This document shows, piece after piece, positions 1-3,690 of a stretch of DNA of 5,842 nt. Made by a program: the position numbers and the translations under genes. Source of the stretch: a virus. Taxonomy: Duplodnaviria; Heunggongvirae; Uroviricota; Caudoviricetes. The DNA lies in IMG/VR virus record IMGVR_UViG_2695420676_000007, one strand, 5' to 3'. Numbering within the stretch: position 1 is the first letter of the stretch; each line of letters opens with the position of its first letter. The notes beneath the pieces are model-generated. The model was not told the origin of the DNA. It saw nothing but the letters and a program-made list of their open reading frames with translations, and did no database searches.

Positions 1-63
1 CTTGTGACCAGTAAGCATGAGCGAATGGCTGGCAGGTGCTACCAACACCCACCAGCCGCCCAT
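1..63 (-). CDS. Partial ORF, N-terminal fragment running off the window start (MGGWWVLVAPASHSLMLTGHK...); function unknown
   Basis: ATG at 63..61 on the minus strand, 20 bp downstream of the stop of the 84..278 gene; frame stays open to position 1. Only 21 codons visible and no clear Shine-Dalgarno, so the frame choice is uncertain. Confidence 0.2.
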   Translation of the reverse strand, partial: MGGWWVLVAPASHSLMLTGHK

Positions 64-83
64 TTTCACAAATTAAAAGTCCT

Positions 84-278
84 TCATAGCTGAAGGCGTC
101 TGTAACAGCCGAACTGGTAATCTGCCAGCCCCGCCATAACCAACTGGGTCAGTATTAACTGACAGCGTTCGCGTGAAAGATATGTGTTTTGTGCAATCTC
201 CCCGACTGTTGCCGGTTCGATGCTTAATTCATTAAAAACAACTTTCGCCGTTTCTGTCATATCTTGCTGTTTTAGCAT
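84..278 (-). CDS. Small hypothetical protein with a winged-helix/HTH-like core (TVGEIAQNTYLSRERCQLILTQL); putative DNA-binding protein
   Basis: Six-frame ORF 84..302. I prefer the internal ATG at 278..276 because it is preceded by AGAAGGAAAAAAGAC (AAGGA Shine-Dalgarno, about 8 nt spacing), whereas the ATG at 302 has no good RBS. The sequence resembles the N-terminal half of the 5221..5709 protein (P-x-T-x-G-[DE]-I-A ... [YL]-S-R-[QE]-R), suggesting paralogous wHTH domains. No family assignment possible without a search. Confidence 0.5.
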   Translation of the reverse strand: MLKQQDMTETAKVVFNELSIEPATVGEIAQNTYLSRERCQLILTQLVMAGLADYQFGCYRRLQL

Positions 279-360
279 GTCTTTTTTCCTTCTGGTTAAC
301 ATGACATACCAATAACTCTTGTCTAAAAAGCCAGCAAGATAAAAAGTCAGTATTCACGAC

Positions 361-400
361 CACCAGCGTGTTTACCGTACTGCACCAGGTTTACAGGTAC
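361..400. repeat. Tandem imperfect direct repeat, two copies of about 19 bp (CACCAG-cgt-GTTTACcGTAC / CACCAG-GTTTACaGGTAC)
   Basis: Copy 1 at 361..380 and copy 2 at 383..400 read directly from the sequence. It sits immediately next to the terminator hairpin and upstream of the 84..278 gene. Confidence 0.4.
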
Positions 401-426
401 AAAAAAACCCGCTCGACGGCGGGTTT
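401..426 (-). terminator. Rho-independent terminator, minus-strand orientation
   Basis: Perfect 8-bp stem (AAACCCGC / GCGGGTTT, 5 GC pairs) with a 6-nt loop. On the minus strand the hairpin is followed by a run of 7 T (401..407 are A on the + strand); on the + strand only TTT then AAG follows, so it is oriented for minus-strand transcripts. Confidence 0.7.
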
Positions 427-611
427 AAGTTGTGTGGCGAAGTAACCACTCTTGAGAGCATATCTGATTATTTACGATTGTAAATAATATATTCCCCCCA
501 ATAATTAGATTGAGAAAACATTACCATATTGATAATAAGGCAATTGACATAATTATAAAAATCATTCTTGGTTGATTTTAAAACAACAAATGCACGATAT
601 TTACCCAATCA

Positions 612-640
612 TTGATGAATACATCTCTAAATGTTATAAA
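612..640 (+). promoter_or_regulatory. Candidate sigma70 promoter for the 691..1962 gene
   Basis: -35 TTGATG (612..617), 17-bp spacer, extended -10 TGtTATAAA (632..640); AGGA Shine-Dalgarno at 677..680 before the ATG at 691. AT-rich context gives many promoter-like hexamers, so this is a prediction only. Confidence 0.4.
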
Positions 641-690
641 TTTATTGTTTTTCTAAAGATAACTCTCATTCATATCAGGAAAGATAAAAA

Positions 691-1962
691 ATGTCAGACA
701 TAAAAAATATACTAAAATGCATGTACTTTGATAAAAATAGATACTCAAACTTTGGCTCCGTAATTAAAAGTCTAGAGATAAATGGATTTCGAGGAATAAA
801 AAAACTAACATTAAATATAAATTTTCCGGTAACTGCAATATCAGGGCTAAACGGCGCTGGGAAAAGCACTCTTGGGCAGTTAGCAATATGCGCATATAAA
901 AAACCAGTTACAGCCCGTGAATATAAGAGATTATATATTAAAGATTTTTTCCCTGTATCTAAAGCCGATCCAGCCCCTTTCGATAATGACGCCAGTGTCA
1001 TTTATAAATATGAAACAAATGATTCAACGAAAACACAAGATGTGACTGTCACTCGCATAAAGTCTTCTTGGTCTGGATATAAAAGACAACCAGAAAGACA
1101 CTGTTTTTACATTGGTTTTACTGTCTATATTCCAAAAGTAGAACGTAGAGATATAAGTGTTTATGGCGGTAAAGACTTTGATTTAACAGAGAGAAGAAGC
1201 GTCGACCATTCAGTAATATTGAAGATGGCAAAAATAATAGGTCATCCATATGATGATATCGCATTCCAAGGAATTTCTCATAGAGCACGTCGTTCAGAAA
1301 TTGGTATTGTTGAAAGACTTGGGTATTCTTATTCTGAAAATAACATGGGGTTTGGCGAAGGAAGAGTTCTTTATACGGTTGATATGCTTGAAACAGCTCC
1401 AGAGCAAAGTCTTTTCGTACTAGAAGAACCAGAAACATCTCTTCATGAAAGCGCACAGTATGAATTTGCAAAATATTTAATGGAAGTATGTCAACGTAGA
1501 AAACATCAAATAATATTATCAACACACTCAAGTGTGATATTAAATGCTTTACCTCCTGATGCACGAAAATTACTTATTAGAGATCAGACTGGTGTCTATA
1601 TCAAAGATGGAATTTCAACAACTCATGTGAGATCAATACTGTCTGATGGGCAGTTTAAAGGGCTGCATATTTGCGTAGAAGACCAGTTTGCAAAAGTTTT
1701 ACTTAGTGAAGTAATTAGAGCAAAGCGGAGAGACATTCTTAAATCCATTCAAATCACTGATATTGGAGATAAAGATGCAGTCCGACAAGCAGTCGAGGTA
1801 TTCAAGAAAGCAGGCCTTAATGTTATTGCCGTAAGAGATGCAGATGTTGGAGAAAACATTAAAGATGATTTATTTTCTTTCCCTGGCAATAGGCCACCAG
1901 AAGTAGAAGTATTTCAACATGAGGAAGTAAAAAAAATTCCTCTACAAGGAGTATCATATTGA
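691..1962 (+). CDS. ABC-type P-loop ATPase (AAA_21/OLD-like) fused to a short C-terminal TOPRIM-like domain; candidate anti-phage defence or exclusion protein; 3' end apparently frameshifted
   Basis: 423-aa ORF with Walker A GLNGAGKST (aa 52-60, nt 844..870), Walker B LFVLEEPETSLH (aa 241-252, Asp replaced by Glu at 245) and H-loop ILSTHS (aa 275-280). The C-terminal region (aa ~320-390) has ICVED (E330) and VRDADVGEN (D383-x-D385), reminiscent of the TOPRIM Glu...DxD signature of OLD/DUF4435 nucleases. It lies on the strand opposite to all flanking prophage genes, in markedly AT-rich DNA with its own promoter and RBS. Confidence 0.85.
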   Translation: MSDIKNILKCMYFDKNRYSNFGSVIKSLEINGFRGIKKLTLNINFPVTAISGLNGAGKSTLGQLAICAYKKPVTAREYKRLYIKDFFPVSKADPAPFDNDASVIYKYETNDSTKTQDVTVTRIKSSWSGYKRQPERHCFYIGFTVYIPKVERRDISVYGGKDFDLTERRSVDHSVILKMAKIIGHPYDDIAFQGISHRARRSEIGIVERLGYSYSENNMGFGEGRVLYTVDMLETAPEQSLFVLEEPETSLHESAQYEFAKYLMEVCQRRKHQIILSTHSSVILNALPPDARKLLIRDQTGVYIKDGISTTHVRSILSDGQFKGLHICVEDQFAKVLLSEVIRAKRRDILKSIQITDIGDKDAVRQAVEVFKKAGLNVIAVRDADVGENIKDDLFSFPGNRPPEVEVFQHEEVKKIPLQGVSY

Positions 1963-2143
1963 TTTTGATTGGTTAATAAAAAAGGAAGGGATTAGTGATC
2001 ATCACAATTACACTCAAGCAATTGCTAAAGAAGCAGAATGTGAGGAGGAAGTAATTAGAACTTTAGCAATAAAAAAATATATTGAAATTATTGATGAGAA
2101 ATTTGACCCACTTATTACAAATATAGTAAGCAAAATAAAATAA
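1931..2143 (+). other. +1-frame open continuation of the ATPase gene (KKFLYKEYHIDFDWLIKKEGISDHHNYTQAIAKEAECEEEVIRTLAIKKYIEIIDEKFDPLITNIVSKIK*)
   Basis: The +1 frame is open from just after a TAA at 1928..1930 through to TAA at 2141..2143 (71 codons, no ATG). It begins inside the A8 run at 1929..1936, 30 nt before the annotated stop. An open frame of this length in roughly 30-35% GC DNA is unlikely by chance. Confidence 0.5.
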
Positions 2144-2153
2144 CAAACCAGCA

Positions 2154-2188
2154 GGCGCTAATTACTAAAAACCTTGTACATTAGCGCC
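2154..2188. repeat. Perfect 9-bp inverted repeat (GGCGCTAAT-N17-ATTAGCGCC) between the convergent ATPase and Q genes; possible terminator or operator
   Basis: Arms at 2154..2162 and 2180..2188 are exact reverse complements. On the minus strand a T-rich tract (TTTGTTATTTTATTTT) follows after a 6-nt gap; on the + strand no T-run follows. It lies 11 nt after the extended-frame stop at 2143. Confidence 0.45.
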
Positions 2189-2315
2189 ACCCTCAAATAA
2201 ATCAGTGGTTATTAAATCCCCACAAAAACATTAATATAAAGCACAAACAGTCCACCCTCCTTAATTTCATGCTAACAATACAAATTAAAAATCCAGATAC
2301 TCATAAAATATCTTT

Positions 2316-2687
2316 CTAGATATTTGAGTCCATTTCCAATTCTATTTCTAACATTATCAACATACCTTCAATGATGCCTTCTGCCTTTTGCAATAAGCGC
2401 CCAACCCAGCAATCAGAACGCCCATGTTTACGGGCAAGCGCCATAAACGTCATACCACCTACATAATAATCTACTAATAAATCGTGCAAATCGCTGTTGT
2501 TCTTTTTCAGACGGGCCATGCACCCGCAAATGATCATCGCGTCATCGTCACAACATTGCGGGCGGGATTTTACTTTTGAAGGAAGTAATCCCTTAAAACC
2601 GGCAGCAATGGACGACCAGGTCACATCCTCATGATTATTAGCCGCCCATGCCCCCCAACGTTCAAGAACCATTTGAATATCACGCAT
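2316..2687 (-). CDS. quuD: Late-gene antitermination protein Q (short QuuD/phage-82-type Q)
   Basis: The translation from the ATG at 2687 ([62 protein letters not shown]...) matches my recollection of the DLP12 QuuD antiterminator family, including the Cys-rich zinc motif. The six-frame start at 2702 is a TTG; the ATG at 2687 is preceded by GGAGGA with 6-nt spacing. Stop TAG at 2316..2318. Confidence 0.85.
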
Positions 2688-2704
2688 CAACTTCCTCCAC
2701 AAAA

Positions 2705-3385
2705 TCAGGCCAGCACGCCTATTGCCAGCGCACGATCGATAAAACGAAATATCAGCTCCAACTGGGAGCCATACTTCTCTTCAAATGCCACGGTATCCGC
2801 ATGCAGCTCGTCGTGATGCTTTCTGCACAAAGGCAACACAAAGAGGTCATGCGCTTTTGTACCCATTCCACCCTGACCGTGGCCTATCAGGTGGTGGGGA
2901 TCATCAGCAGGCTTTCCACAACATGCACACGGCTGTGTCTTAACCCAGCGCGTGTACTTTTCGTTAACCCAGCGGCGACGTTTTGGGCGTAACATAAAAG
3001 ACTCCGGCGACTCCGGATCCACTTTCAGCGCCAGCACCTTTTTCACTTTATCCTGGATGATGCTGGTGGCAGGAACCGAAGGAACAAGGTCACTTTCCCG
3101 GGTGACAGACGGCACAACAGGCTTCGGTAATCTCAGTGCCTTACGGGCTGCACTTTCCGGCAAGGCACCCGCCAGGTCATTACGAACCAGCCACCAGCAC
3201 AGTTCCGGCATTGTCACAACGTGACTGTCATCAAAACCGAGATCCCGACGCACAACAGACAACACCCAGCGGGCACAGTTATCCGTTGCCATTGATTCCA
3301 GCCGTTCCGTGAACTGATCGCGCAGCTGGTTATCGCAGTGCCAGCACAGACGGATTGCGCCCGGAGCGTGTCGCATTGTGGTCAT
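2705..3385 (-). CDS. DUF968-like (YdfU-like) Cys/His-rich phage protein; putative zinc-binding nuclease-like protein of the nin region
   Basis: 226-aa ORF with motif [44 protein letters not shown], which I recall as typical of DUF968 proteins found just upstream of Q in E. coli prophages. The ATG at 3385 overlaps the stop of the upstream ORF (ATGA). Family name from memory, not verified. Confidence 0.7.
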
Positions 3386-3690
3386 GTTCTCGCTGTGCCA
3401 GTCGGAATGAGGCCACTGGCAGCCAGTAACCAGCTTTCAAGACATTCCACGCCACCAGCACGACGGATCACTGCCTCATTGCGGAACACGGCCCGAACGG
3501 CAGGATCATCCGCCAGCGGTTGTGATGCCGCCGGAACGGCGCCACTGGCGAAAGATGAATAACTTTCCGGCTCAGGCTCCAGCAGGACACGCCCCTGCAT
3601 AAACAGGGGCATCAGCTCTGAACCAGGCCTGAACAATACGATCCCCATACGCGGGGCAATTTCAGGGGTCAGTAGTGCTCTCACGGTCAC
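3382..3690 (-). CDS. Hypothetical protein (about 100 aa or shorter); start codon uncertain
   Basis: ORF exactly filling the gap between the KilA-N gene stop (3692..3694) and the DUF968 gene start, with an ATGA stop/start overlap at 3382..3385. The first codon at 3690 is GTG with no clear Shine-Dalgarno; internal ATGs exist. It could be a separate gene or the detached N-terminal part of the downstream protein. Confidence 0.4.
   Translation of the reverse strand: MTVRALLTPEIAPRMGIVLFRPGSELMPLFMQGRVLLEPEPESYSSFASGAVPAASQPLADDPAVRAVFRNEAVIRRAGGVECLESWLLAASGLIPTGTART

What the first reader, a model, noticed from the sequence alone, without database searches (positions are those of the whole stretch)
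691..2143. Compact ABC-ATPase fused to a TOPRIM-like domain as an opposite-strand moron next to Q: candidate single-gene anti-phage system
The 423-aa protein (about 483 aa if the frameshift is repaired) combines a complete ABC/OLD-type ATPase core (Walker A K58, Walker B E245/E246, H-loop H279) with a short C-terminal region carrying Glu (E330) and DxD (D383/D385) motifs in TOPRIM-like spacing. ATPase-plus-TOPRIM is the architecture of OLD-family nucleases and of PARIS and Gabija effectors, but this protein is much smaller than those I recall, so it may be a minimised or distinct family. It sits in AT-rich foreign-looking DNA, convergent with Q and opposite to the whole prophage operon, which is a typical place for prophage-encoded exclusion genes.
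Basis: partly seen in the sequence, partly recalled or inferred. Interest (0 to 1): 0.85.

Follow-up and report, generated by a model that had tools for sequence, protein, structure and literature searches.

The report
Frameshifted prophage ATPase-TOPRIM defence nuclease gene

Summary
ORF 691-1962 (+) encodes 423 aa. An A8 tract at 1929-1936 shifts the frame, and the +1 frame continues to a stop at 2140-2142. Eleven complete E. coli genomes carry the same DNA with A7 and an intact 483-aa CDS, annotated 'ATP-dependent nuclease'.

The protein is not a new family. Its best PADLOC match is HEC-04 (E 4e-47), a single-gene ABC-ATPase-TOPRIM defence whose Walker A and TOPRIM mutants lose defence. It is also a distant homologue of plasmid IbfA.

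It has no conserved partner gene. It sits in an AT-rich cargo slot between Q and the lysis genes, and sibling prophages hold other defence-like cargo there.

The window copy lacks the last 68 residues, including invariant W427 and H437/H438, so it is probably inactive. The truncated allele is a minority: 13 contigs against 460 for the intact one.

Verdict: a new, frameshifted member of a known kind. Trigger and substrate (DNA or tRNA) are unknown.

The parts
691..1962 (+). Frameshifted ORF: 415 native residues plus 8 aberrant residues (IPLQGVSY), then TGA. It holds the ATPase domain and the TOPRIM core.
677..683 (+). Shine-Dalgarno-like AGGAAAG, 10 nt before the ATG at 691. The start codon is supported by end-to-end alignment with 483-aa homologues.
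   Evidence: read from the sequence; homologue lengths and N-termini
691..1650 (+). ABC-type ATPase domain (about aa 1-320). Walker A K58 is at 862-864, the signature SENNMGFGEG at about 1333-1362, Walker B E245/E246 at 1423-1428, and H-loop H279 at 1525-1527.
   Evidence: Pfam AAA_15 7.9e-21 and AAA_21 2.2e-14 (2.2e-19 and 3.4e-14 on the repaired protein); invariant columns; Foldseek hits to OLD, GajA, PtuA, SMC and Rad50
1651..2139 (+). OLD-type TOPRIM domain with a C-terminal helical bundle (aa about 321-483 of the intact protein). E330 is at 1678-1680, D383 at 1837-1839, D385 at 1843-1845 and E404 at 1900-1902. The part after 1936 is read in the +1 frame.
1929..1936 (+). A8 homopolymer. 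It has one A more than the A7 of the intact allele, and this is the frameshift site.
1937..2142 (+). +1-frame continuation that encodes residues 416-483 of the intact protein (includes invariant W427 and H437/H438) and the TAA stop. It is not translated from this allele unless slippage occurs.
2154..2188 (.). GC-rich hairpin (GGCGCTAAT...ATTAGCGCC) between the convergent ATPase-TOPRIM and Q genes. A U-rich tail follows it only on the minus strand.
   Evidence: z = -3.6 on the + strand; sequence
454..2315 (.). AT-rich (33% G+C) variable cargo module. The left boundary is sharp at 453/454. The right boundary falls within or just past the 3' end of Q.
2316..2702 (-). QuuD-like antiterminator Q (context; convergent neighbour).
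   Evidence: PF06530 at 1.8e-51; annotation

Best explanation
The locus is a frameshifted allele of a prophage cargo gene. The intact gene encodes a 483-aa single-polypeptide ABC-ATPase-TOPRIM nuclease of the OLD superfamily. Its closest described relatives are the HEC-04 defence system and plasmid IbfA.

Inferred mechanism of the intact protein: in the lysogen it is made from its own promoter, on the strand opposite to the prophage late operon. The N-terminal ABC ATPase acts as a sensor or gate; ATP binding or hydrolysis is required in HEC-04, P2 Old and Vc OLD. On infection by another phage, the ATPase licenses the C-terminal TOPRIM domain. That domain uses acidic residues E330, D383, D385 and E404 for metal-dependent phosphodiester cleavage, which stops the infection.

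The substrate is not shown. I lean slightly (about 55:45) to a host tRNA or RNA target with an abortive outcome, as for P2 Old and PARIS AriB, and consistent with IbfA leaving phage DNA replication intact. The alternative is nicking of phage DNA, as for Vc OLD.

The copy in this window has an extra A in an A7 tract. It therefore lacks the last 68 conserved residues and is most likely inactive.

What is shown: sequence, frameshift, homology, fold, context and allele frequencies. What is inferred: defence function, gating, substrate, and loss of function.
For: Frameshift and intact allele.

ATPase motifs: they are invariant, with Pfam AAA_15 and AAA_21 hits.

TOPRIM:
- The top eight Foldseek hits for that model are all OLD-family TOPRIM regions.
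- For the whole protein, Foldseek puts Ts OLD first at 4.9e-15, followed by GajA and retron Eco8.
- hhalign of the family against P2 Old gives 97.4% probability and E 9e-12. It aligns CVED with VEG and RDAD with DCD.
- PF20469 matches 11 of 31 relatives, best E 3.8e-7.

Known family:
- PADLOC HEC-04 matches at 3.9e-47 over 80% of the model.
- All 41 sampled relatives also hit HEC-04.
- An IbfA-like plasmid protein aligns at 23% identity over 391 aa, E 2e-18, with the catalytic motifs in register.
- HEC-04 defence requires its Walker A lysine and its E/D/D residues.

Single gene, mobile and defence-linked:
- There is no conserved neighbour in E. coli, Klebsiella or Pseudomonas.
- Neighbours include AbiC, HEPN and ThsB-TIR genes.
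- The gene is present in 11 genomes, whereas the left flank is found in 1418.
- The same slot in a sibling prophage holds a PD-T4-2/NsnA-like DUF262 plus HEPN pair.

Pseudogene status:
- The lost residues include invariant W427 and H437/H438.
- The exact truncated protein is on 13 contigs, against 460 for the intact one.
- The same contig carries a second lesion, a 10-bp deletion in the DUF968 gene.
Against: No experiment exists on this subfamily.

It matches HEC-04 at 159 bits, which makes it a divergent relative and not a core member. The last ~70 residues do not align to the HEC-04 model.

The Pfam TOPRIM hit on this protein itself is below threshold (E 0.16). A profile of the C-terminal domain found no PDB sequence. 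Foldseek TM-scores for the domain are only 0.40-0.47.

The helical dimerisation insert typical of Ts OLD and GajA is not seen in the model, although that region has low pLDDT.

The truncated allele keeps the whole ATPase and the acidic TOPRIM residues, so residual or altered activity cannot be excluded.

The substrate preference is a guess drawn from relatives that disagree with each other.
Confidence: 0.75

Rival explanations
1. The A8 allele is not dead. Either the 423-aa protein keeps activity, since it has the ATPase plus E330, D383, D385 and E404, or RNA polymerase or ribosome slippage on the A8 run restores a little full-length protein. That would give an attenuated, low-dose version of a toxic defence gene.
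For: All catalytic acidic residues lie upstream of the shift. The allele persists in several assemblies with otherwise identical sequence. HEC-04 is toxic when induced (methods passage), so down-tuning could be selected. From general knowledge, long A runs are prone to transcriptional slippage.
Against: The lost 68 residues form three to four confident helices of the domain and hold invariant W427 and H437/H438. The A run is not conserved in the Klebsiella homologue, which has VKNF, so it is not a designed switch. The truncated allele is rare (13 contigs against 460). Several of its accessions look like one sequencing project, which suggests one clonal mutation. The same contig has another inactivating deletion.
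Confidence: 0.12
2. The intact protein does not defend against phages. It serves the prophage itself (replication, recombination or DNA processing through a TOPRIM enzyme), or it acts as a selfish addiction or toxin module.
For: TOPRIM domains also occur in primases, topoisomerases and RecR. Pfam's AAA_21 name mentions a toxin. P2 Old kills recBC hosts (PMC10568477).
Against: The gene is sporadic cargo: 11 genomes have it while 528 genomes carry most (at least 80%) of the left flank. It is AT-rich and on the opposite strand. It also occurs outside prophages, next to defence genes. No NCBIfam housekeeping model reaches its cut-off. The best structural and profile matches are all defence nucleases.
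Confidence: 0.08
3. Same protein family, but the effector step is nicking or degradation of phage DNA during replication (as for Vc OLD, Ts OLD and GajA). It is not tRNA or RNA cleavage.
For: Vc OLD, a single-gene Class 1 enzyme, is a DNA nickase that disrupts phage genome replication (PMC12392090). Ts OLD and Bp OLD cut DNA in vitro (PMC10568477). Both are top structural matches.
Confidence: 0.4

Closest known systems
HEC-04 (Hma-embedded candidate 04; PADLOC PDLC04149; Payne et al., bioRxiv 10.1101/2024.01.29.577857)
   Same: Both are single polypeptides of about 490 aa with an ABC ATPase fused to an OLD-like TOPRIM. HEC-04 is the best profile match (E 3.9e-47, model positions 7-403 of 494). 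The catalytic layout is the same: K62, E319 and D375/D377 in HEC-04, and K58, E330 and D383/D385 here. The HEC-04 paper describes a beta-rich Insert 1 that extends the PS1-PS2 hairpin of the ATPase, and this model also shows a beta-rich insert.
   Different: This protein is a divergent relative (159 bits) and its last ~70 residues do not align. It is carried in a lambdoid prophage between Q and the lysis genes, not embedded in an Hma system. This subfamily has not been tested. The copy in the window is frameshifted.
IbfA of IncI1 plasmids (R64, pUA1135; PMC12111858)
   Same: Both are ATPase-TOPRIM single proteins. An IbfA-like plasmid protein (521 aa) aligns over 391 residues with the VED and DxD motifs in register. 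It also hits HEC-04. Both are carried on mobile elements.
   Different: Identity is only 23%. IbfA is plasmid-borne and longer. Its reported abortive-infection phenotype has not been shown for this protein. I did not verify that the plasmid protein I compared is IbfA itself. It is an IbfA-like AAA ATPase from an IncF plasmid.
Class 1 OLD family nucleases (P2 Old, Thermus scotoductus OLD 6P74, Vibrio cholerae Vc OLD)
   Same: Both are single-gene N-terminal ABC ATPase plus C-terminal TOPRIM proteins. Ts OLD is the best PDB match by sequence (5.8e-7) and by fold. P2 Old aligns by hhalign from the signature motif to DxD. Like P2 old, the gene is prophage-encoded and expressed against other phages.
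   Different: This protein is shorter (483 aa, against 528 for Ts OLD and 586 for P2 Old). The model shows no helical dimerisation insert in the ATPase. Sequence similarity outside the motifs is very low (11-18% in structural alignments).
PARIS AriB, Gabija GajA, and the retron Eco8 / type I-B ATPase-Toprim effector
   Different: No partner genes are present: no AriA/AriB split, no GajB helicase, and no reverse transcriptase or ncRNA. The fused AriAB model matches only residues 219-285.

Membership tests
OLD superfamily (ATPase-coupled TOPRIM nucleases) | N-terminal ABC-type ATPase with Walker A, signature, Walker B and H-loop motifs | tested here: met
   AAA_15 7.9e-21 and AAA_21 2.2e-14 (repaired protein). 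Invariant K58, G220/G222/E223, E246, H252 and H279. Fold matches to OLD, GajA, PtuA, SMC and Rad50.
OLD superfamily (ATPase-coupled TOPRIM nucleases) | C-terminal TOPRIM domain with a conserved Glu and DxD metal-binding motif | tested here: met
OLD superfamily (ATPase-coupled TOPRIM nucleases) | Helical dimerisation domain inserted in the ATPase (seen in Ts OLD and GajA) | tested here: inconclusive
   DSSP of the model shows beta strands at 93-137 and a single helix at 169-179 between Walker A and the signature motif, with no helical bundle. However, residues 140-157 and 199-217 have pLDDT below 50.
OLD superfamily (ATPase-coupled TOPRIM nucleases) | ATP-dependent or ATP-regulated metal-dependent nuclease activity | not testable with these tools
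   This needs purified protein.
Class 1 OLD (single-gene) | Stand-alone gene with no conserved partner | tested here: met
   Neighbours differ completely in the E. coli prophage, the Klebsiella island and the Pseudomonas chromosome.
Class 2 OLD / Gabija | Adjacent UvrD-like helicase gajB | tested here: not met
   The downstream neighbour is a convergent Q gene. There is no helicase in 25.8 kb of strain H8.
Class 3 OLD / retron type I-B | Adjacent reverse transcriptase and msr/msd ncRNA | tested here: not met
   No RT is annotated, and there is no Rfam family in the window. The PADLOC ATPase-Toprim_I-B hit reflects the shared effector fold only.
Class 4 OLD / PARIS | Separate AriA ATPase and AriB (DUF4435) TOPRIM proteins, or a fused AriAB | tested here: not met
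   It is a single fused protein. The PADLOC AriAB model matches only residues 219-285. No DUF4435 Pfam hit was found. AriB resembles it only in fold.
HEC-04 | Match to the PADLOC HEC-04 profile over most of its length, as a single gene | tested here: met
   E 3.9e-47, 159 bits, protein residues 5-410 against model positions 7-403 of 494. This is stronger than the IbfA-like protein's 111 bits. PADLOC's own cut-offs could not be consulted.
HEC-04 | Defence that depends on the Walker A lysine and on the TOPRIM E/D/D residues | not testable with these tools
   The equivalent residues are present and invariant. The phenotype is known only for the HEC-04 representative.

The most novel reading that the evidence does not exclude
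The 482-484-aa subfamily is highly conserved (57-78% identity from E. coli to Pseudomonas, Vibrio and Acidithiobacillus). It could be a functionally distinct clade of compact OLD-like nucleases with its own trigger and substrate, for example a specific tRNA. In lambdoid prophages its placement antisense to the Q-dependent late transcript could switch it off during the prophage's own induction. The A7/A8 tract could act as an occasional off or low-dose switch.
Probability: 0.15. Interest if true: 0.5.

Novelty: new member of a known kind. Interest (0 to 1): 0.27.

Why it matters
If the intact allele is active, it adds a prophage-borne, widely distributed and strongly conserved clade to the single-gene OLD / HEC-04 / IbfA defences. 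It would be a convenient small model (483 aa, no partner) for asking how an ABC ATPase gates a TOPRIM nuclease, and whether such enzymes cut DNA or tRNA. It also marks the Q-to-lysis interval of QuuD-type lambdoid prophages as a swap site for opposite-strand defence cargo, which could be mined for new systems. For the window itself the practical message is modest: the gene is a known type and is broken here.

Tried and rejected
- A profile of the C-terminal domain searched against PDB sequences found nothing meaningful, so TOPRIM identity had to come from fold and hhalign evidence.
- Megablast against the phage collection found no match. tblastn found only a distant, split homologue in Burkholderia phage phiE094.
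- NCBIfam gave only sub-threshold hits to many ABC and SMC ATPases, so I rejected a housekeeping ATPase.
- I looked for the Q-dependent late promoter between the Q stop and the hairpin. No sigma-70-like site with at least 8 of 12 matches was found. The general promoter scan was not above shuffled expectation (13 found against 10.1 expected). The promoters of the gene and of the late operon therefore stay unassigned.
- I considered programmed frameshifting or phase variation at the A tract and judged it unlikely. The tract is not conserved in homologues and the A8 allele is rare.
- Rfam and tRNA scans of the window were empty.
I used P0001 (479 aa, lacking the first four residues) and sub-sequences instead.

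Full report
**1. Observation**

The window contains an ORF at 691..1962 (+) of 423 aa. An A8 run at 1929-1936 is followed, in the +1 frame, by an open stretch that ends at TAA 2140-2142.

Megablast of window 500-2300 against 5,426 complete E. coli genomes found 11 chromosomes with at least 99.7% identity. All were 1,800 bases long against the query's 1,801. In strain H8 the region is annotated as a 1,452-bp CDS, 'ATP-dependent nuclease' WP_032083250.1.

A base-by-base alignment shows the only difference in this 1.8 kb is the extra A at 1929. Removing it reproduces the H8 protein exactly. The frameshift keeps residues 1-415, adds eight aberrant residues and loses 416-483.

**2. What the protein is**

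Pfam gives strong AAA_15 and AAA_21 hits, but only a sub-threshold OLD-like_TOPRIM hit (E 0.16-0.18).

The family is large and length-conserved:
- 736 word-index hits, the top 120 being 57-78% identical and mostly 482-484 aa long. They come from Klebsiella, Vibrio, Pseudomonas, Aeromonas, Shewanella, Methylomonas and Acidithiobacillus.
- In an exhaustive search of 50%-identity representatives, 3,085 clusters at E <= 1e-3, 969 at <= 1e-10 and 126 at <= 1e-30, mostly 480-530 aa.

Across 57 close homologues the Walker A, signature (SENNMGFGEG), Walker B, D-loop His and H-loop are invariant. So are E330/D331, D383/D385, E404, W427 and H437/H438 (P0001 numbering + 4).

Across 41 relatives down to 21% identity, including an IbfA-like plasmid protein, N54, K58, T60, G220, G222, E223, E246, H252, H279, E330, D331, D383 and E404 remain invariant. 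D385 is at least 90% conserved.

**3. Is the C-terminal domain TOPRIM?**

A full-length AlphaFold model (pLDDT 80) has Thermus scotoductus Class 1 OLD as its best PDB match (E 4.9e-15). Gabija GajA and retron Eco8 follow, all ahead of ATPase-only proteins.

A separate model of residues 316-483 (pLDDT 95, pTM 0.89) gave these results:
- In Foldseek, the top eight hits were only OLD-family TOPRIM regions: AriB, Xanthomonas and Burkholderia OLD C-terminal regions, Ts OLD and GajA. E-values were modest (3e-3 to 2e-2) and TM-scores were 0.40-0.47.

hhalign of the family alignment against P2 Old gave 97.4% probability and E 9e-12. The alignment runs from the signature motif through Walker B and the H-loop, then pairs CVED with VEG and RDAD with DCD.

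Eleven of 31 relatives' C-terminal domains hit PF20469, best E 3.8e-7, and no other family recurs. A C-terminal profile found no PDB sequence, so the link is remote. Even so, the evidence is consistent: the domain is an OLD-type TOPRIM with a helical C-terminal bundle.

**4. Relation to known systems**

In PADLOC-DB the best match by far is HEC-04 (E 3.9e-47, 159 bits, 80% of the model). Next is the retron type I-B ATPase-Toprim effector model (2.5e-22, residues 238-470). AriA, NsnB and GajA hits are confined to the ATPase. All 41 sampled relatives hit HEC-04, best E 2.7e-73.

[quoted passage not shown] It protects E. coli against several phages and loses defence with K62A or E319A/D375A/D377A (bioRxiv 10.1101/2024.01.29.577857).

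IbfA of IncI1 plasmids is reported as a HEC-04 homologue that causes abortive infection of a P22-like phage. It does so without blocking phage DNA replication (PMC12111858). An IbfA-like plasmid protein aligns with ours at 23% identity over 391 residues with the motifs in register. It scores lower on HEC-04 than our protein does.

By the published class scheme (PMC12392090; PMC10568477), a stand-alone ATPase-TOPRIM gene is Class 1-like. The partners that define Classes 2-4 are absent here.

The protein differs from Ts OLD and GajA in lacking a visible helical dimerisation insert. The model shows a beta-rich insert instead, as described for HEC-04, but part of that region is low-confidence.

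**5. Context**

In strain H8 the gene lies in a lambdoid prophage integrated at a tRNA-Thr next to proA. It sits between a QuuD-type Q antiterminator on one side and, on the other, a 64-aa gene, an N6/N4 methyltransferase and the lysis cassette. It is on the opposite strand to all of them.

The cargo is 33% G+C, against 46% for the left flank and 53% for the right flank.

The left flank (window 1-453) occurs in 1,418 E. coli genomes, and homology stops sharply at 453. The ATPase-TOPRIM gene occurs in only 11.

In sibling prophages the same slot, also on the opposite strand, holds other cargo:
- a DUF262 protein that matches NsnA / PD-T4-2_A, with a HEPN-like nuclease and a cytosine methyltransferase;
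- a 'nucleoid-associated protein' plus a hypothetical protein, with no PADLOC hit.

Elsewhere the family is also solitary and sits among mobile or defence genes:
- In Klebsiella it is in an integrase/AlpA island with AbiC-like, HicB, HEPN and capsid-protease genes.
- In Pseudomonas it lies next to a ThsB-TIR-like gene.

**6. Status of the copy in the window**

The exact truncated protein occurs on 13 contigs in several assemblies. These include the 5,842-nt contig CYDJ01000056.1 of GCA_001284985.1, which matches the window's length and gene coordinates. The exact intact protein occurs on 460 contigs. The frameshift is therefore a real but minority allele.

The lost segment forms confident helices and holds invariant residues. 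The A run is not conserved in the Klebsiella homologue.

The same contig has a 10-bp deletion that splits the DUF968 gene, which fits a decaying prophage. I infer loss of function. Residual activity or slippage-restored expression is a minor rival.

**7. Mechanism**

What is shown is homology, fold, conserved catalytic residues and mobile, solitary, defence-linked context.

From relatives I infer the following. The ABC ATPase senses or gates, and the TOPRIM domain cleaves nucleic acid by acidic-residue metal catalysis. The result is failure of the superinfecting phage.

The substrate is open. Vc OLD nicks DNA and Ts and Bp OLD cut DNA in vitro. Against that, P2 Old severs tRNA anticodon stems, PARIS degrades tRNA and IbfA does not reduce phage DNA replication. 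I lean slightly to an RNA or tRNA target.

**8. Verdict**

This is a frameshifted member of a known, already modelled kind. Interest is low to moderate, mainly for the conserved subfamily and for the Q-lysis cargo slot.

Noticed in passing
window 454-2330; L012 4954-7900; L013 4953-7413: The interval between Q and the 64-aa gene / methyltransferase / lysis cassette of QuuD-type lambdoid prophages behaves as a cargo-swap site. The left boundary is sharp at window 453. Sibling prophages carry different opposite-strand cargo there. One holds a PD-T4-2/NsnA-like DUF262 plus a HEPN nuclease (with a Dcm methylase). Another holds a 'nucleoid-associated protein' plus a 408-aa hypothetical protein with no PADLOC hit, which could be an undescribed defence pair.
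   Followed up: partly
window about 3424 (DUF968 gene, 2705-3690, minus strand): A 10-bp deletion relative to strain H8 splits the 329-aa DUF968/HNH-like gene into ORFs of 226 and 102 aa. This is a second inactivating lesion on the same contig, which suggests a decaying prophage.
   Followed up: yes
window 405-426 (minus strand) and 2154-2188: A strong intrinsic terminator on the minus strand (stem plus T7 run) lies in the conserved left flank. A GC-rich hairpin, with a U-rich tail only on the minus strand, lies between the convergent Q and ATPase-TOPRIM genes. No sigma-70-like late promoter was recognisable between the Q stop and the hairpin. So it is unclear where the Q-dependent late promoter is, and whether late transcription runs antisense through the cargo gene.
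   Followed up: partly
L003 2328-3940 (Burkholderia phage phiE094, a P2-like Peduoviridae phage): A distant homologue (30% identity) lies next to the integrase. It is annotated as two adjacent 'AAA family ATPase' CDSs (gp49 and gp48), so it is possibly also split by a frameshift. A large deaminase-family gene follows it.
   Followed up: no
L004-L007 1-9452 (Klebsiella pneumoniae): The 75%-identical Klebsiella homologue sits at the end of a small integrative island with integrase, AlpA, putAbiC, HicB, an AAA_25 replication protein, HEPN and a ClpP-capsid fusion. This layout looks like a capsid-forming phage satellite. In L007 the island abuts a prophage head-tail module.
   Followed up: no
window 84-302 (minus strand): A small conserved ORF (64 aa as called in databases, 72 aa from the first ATG in the ORF list) has no Pfam family. 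It is present in the flank shared by more than 1,000 E. coli genomes. One genome annotates the homologous region as a TrmB-family regulator.
   Followed up: no
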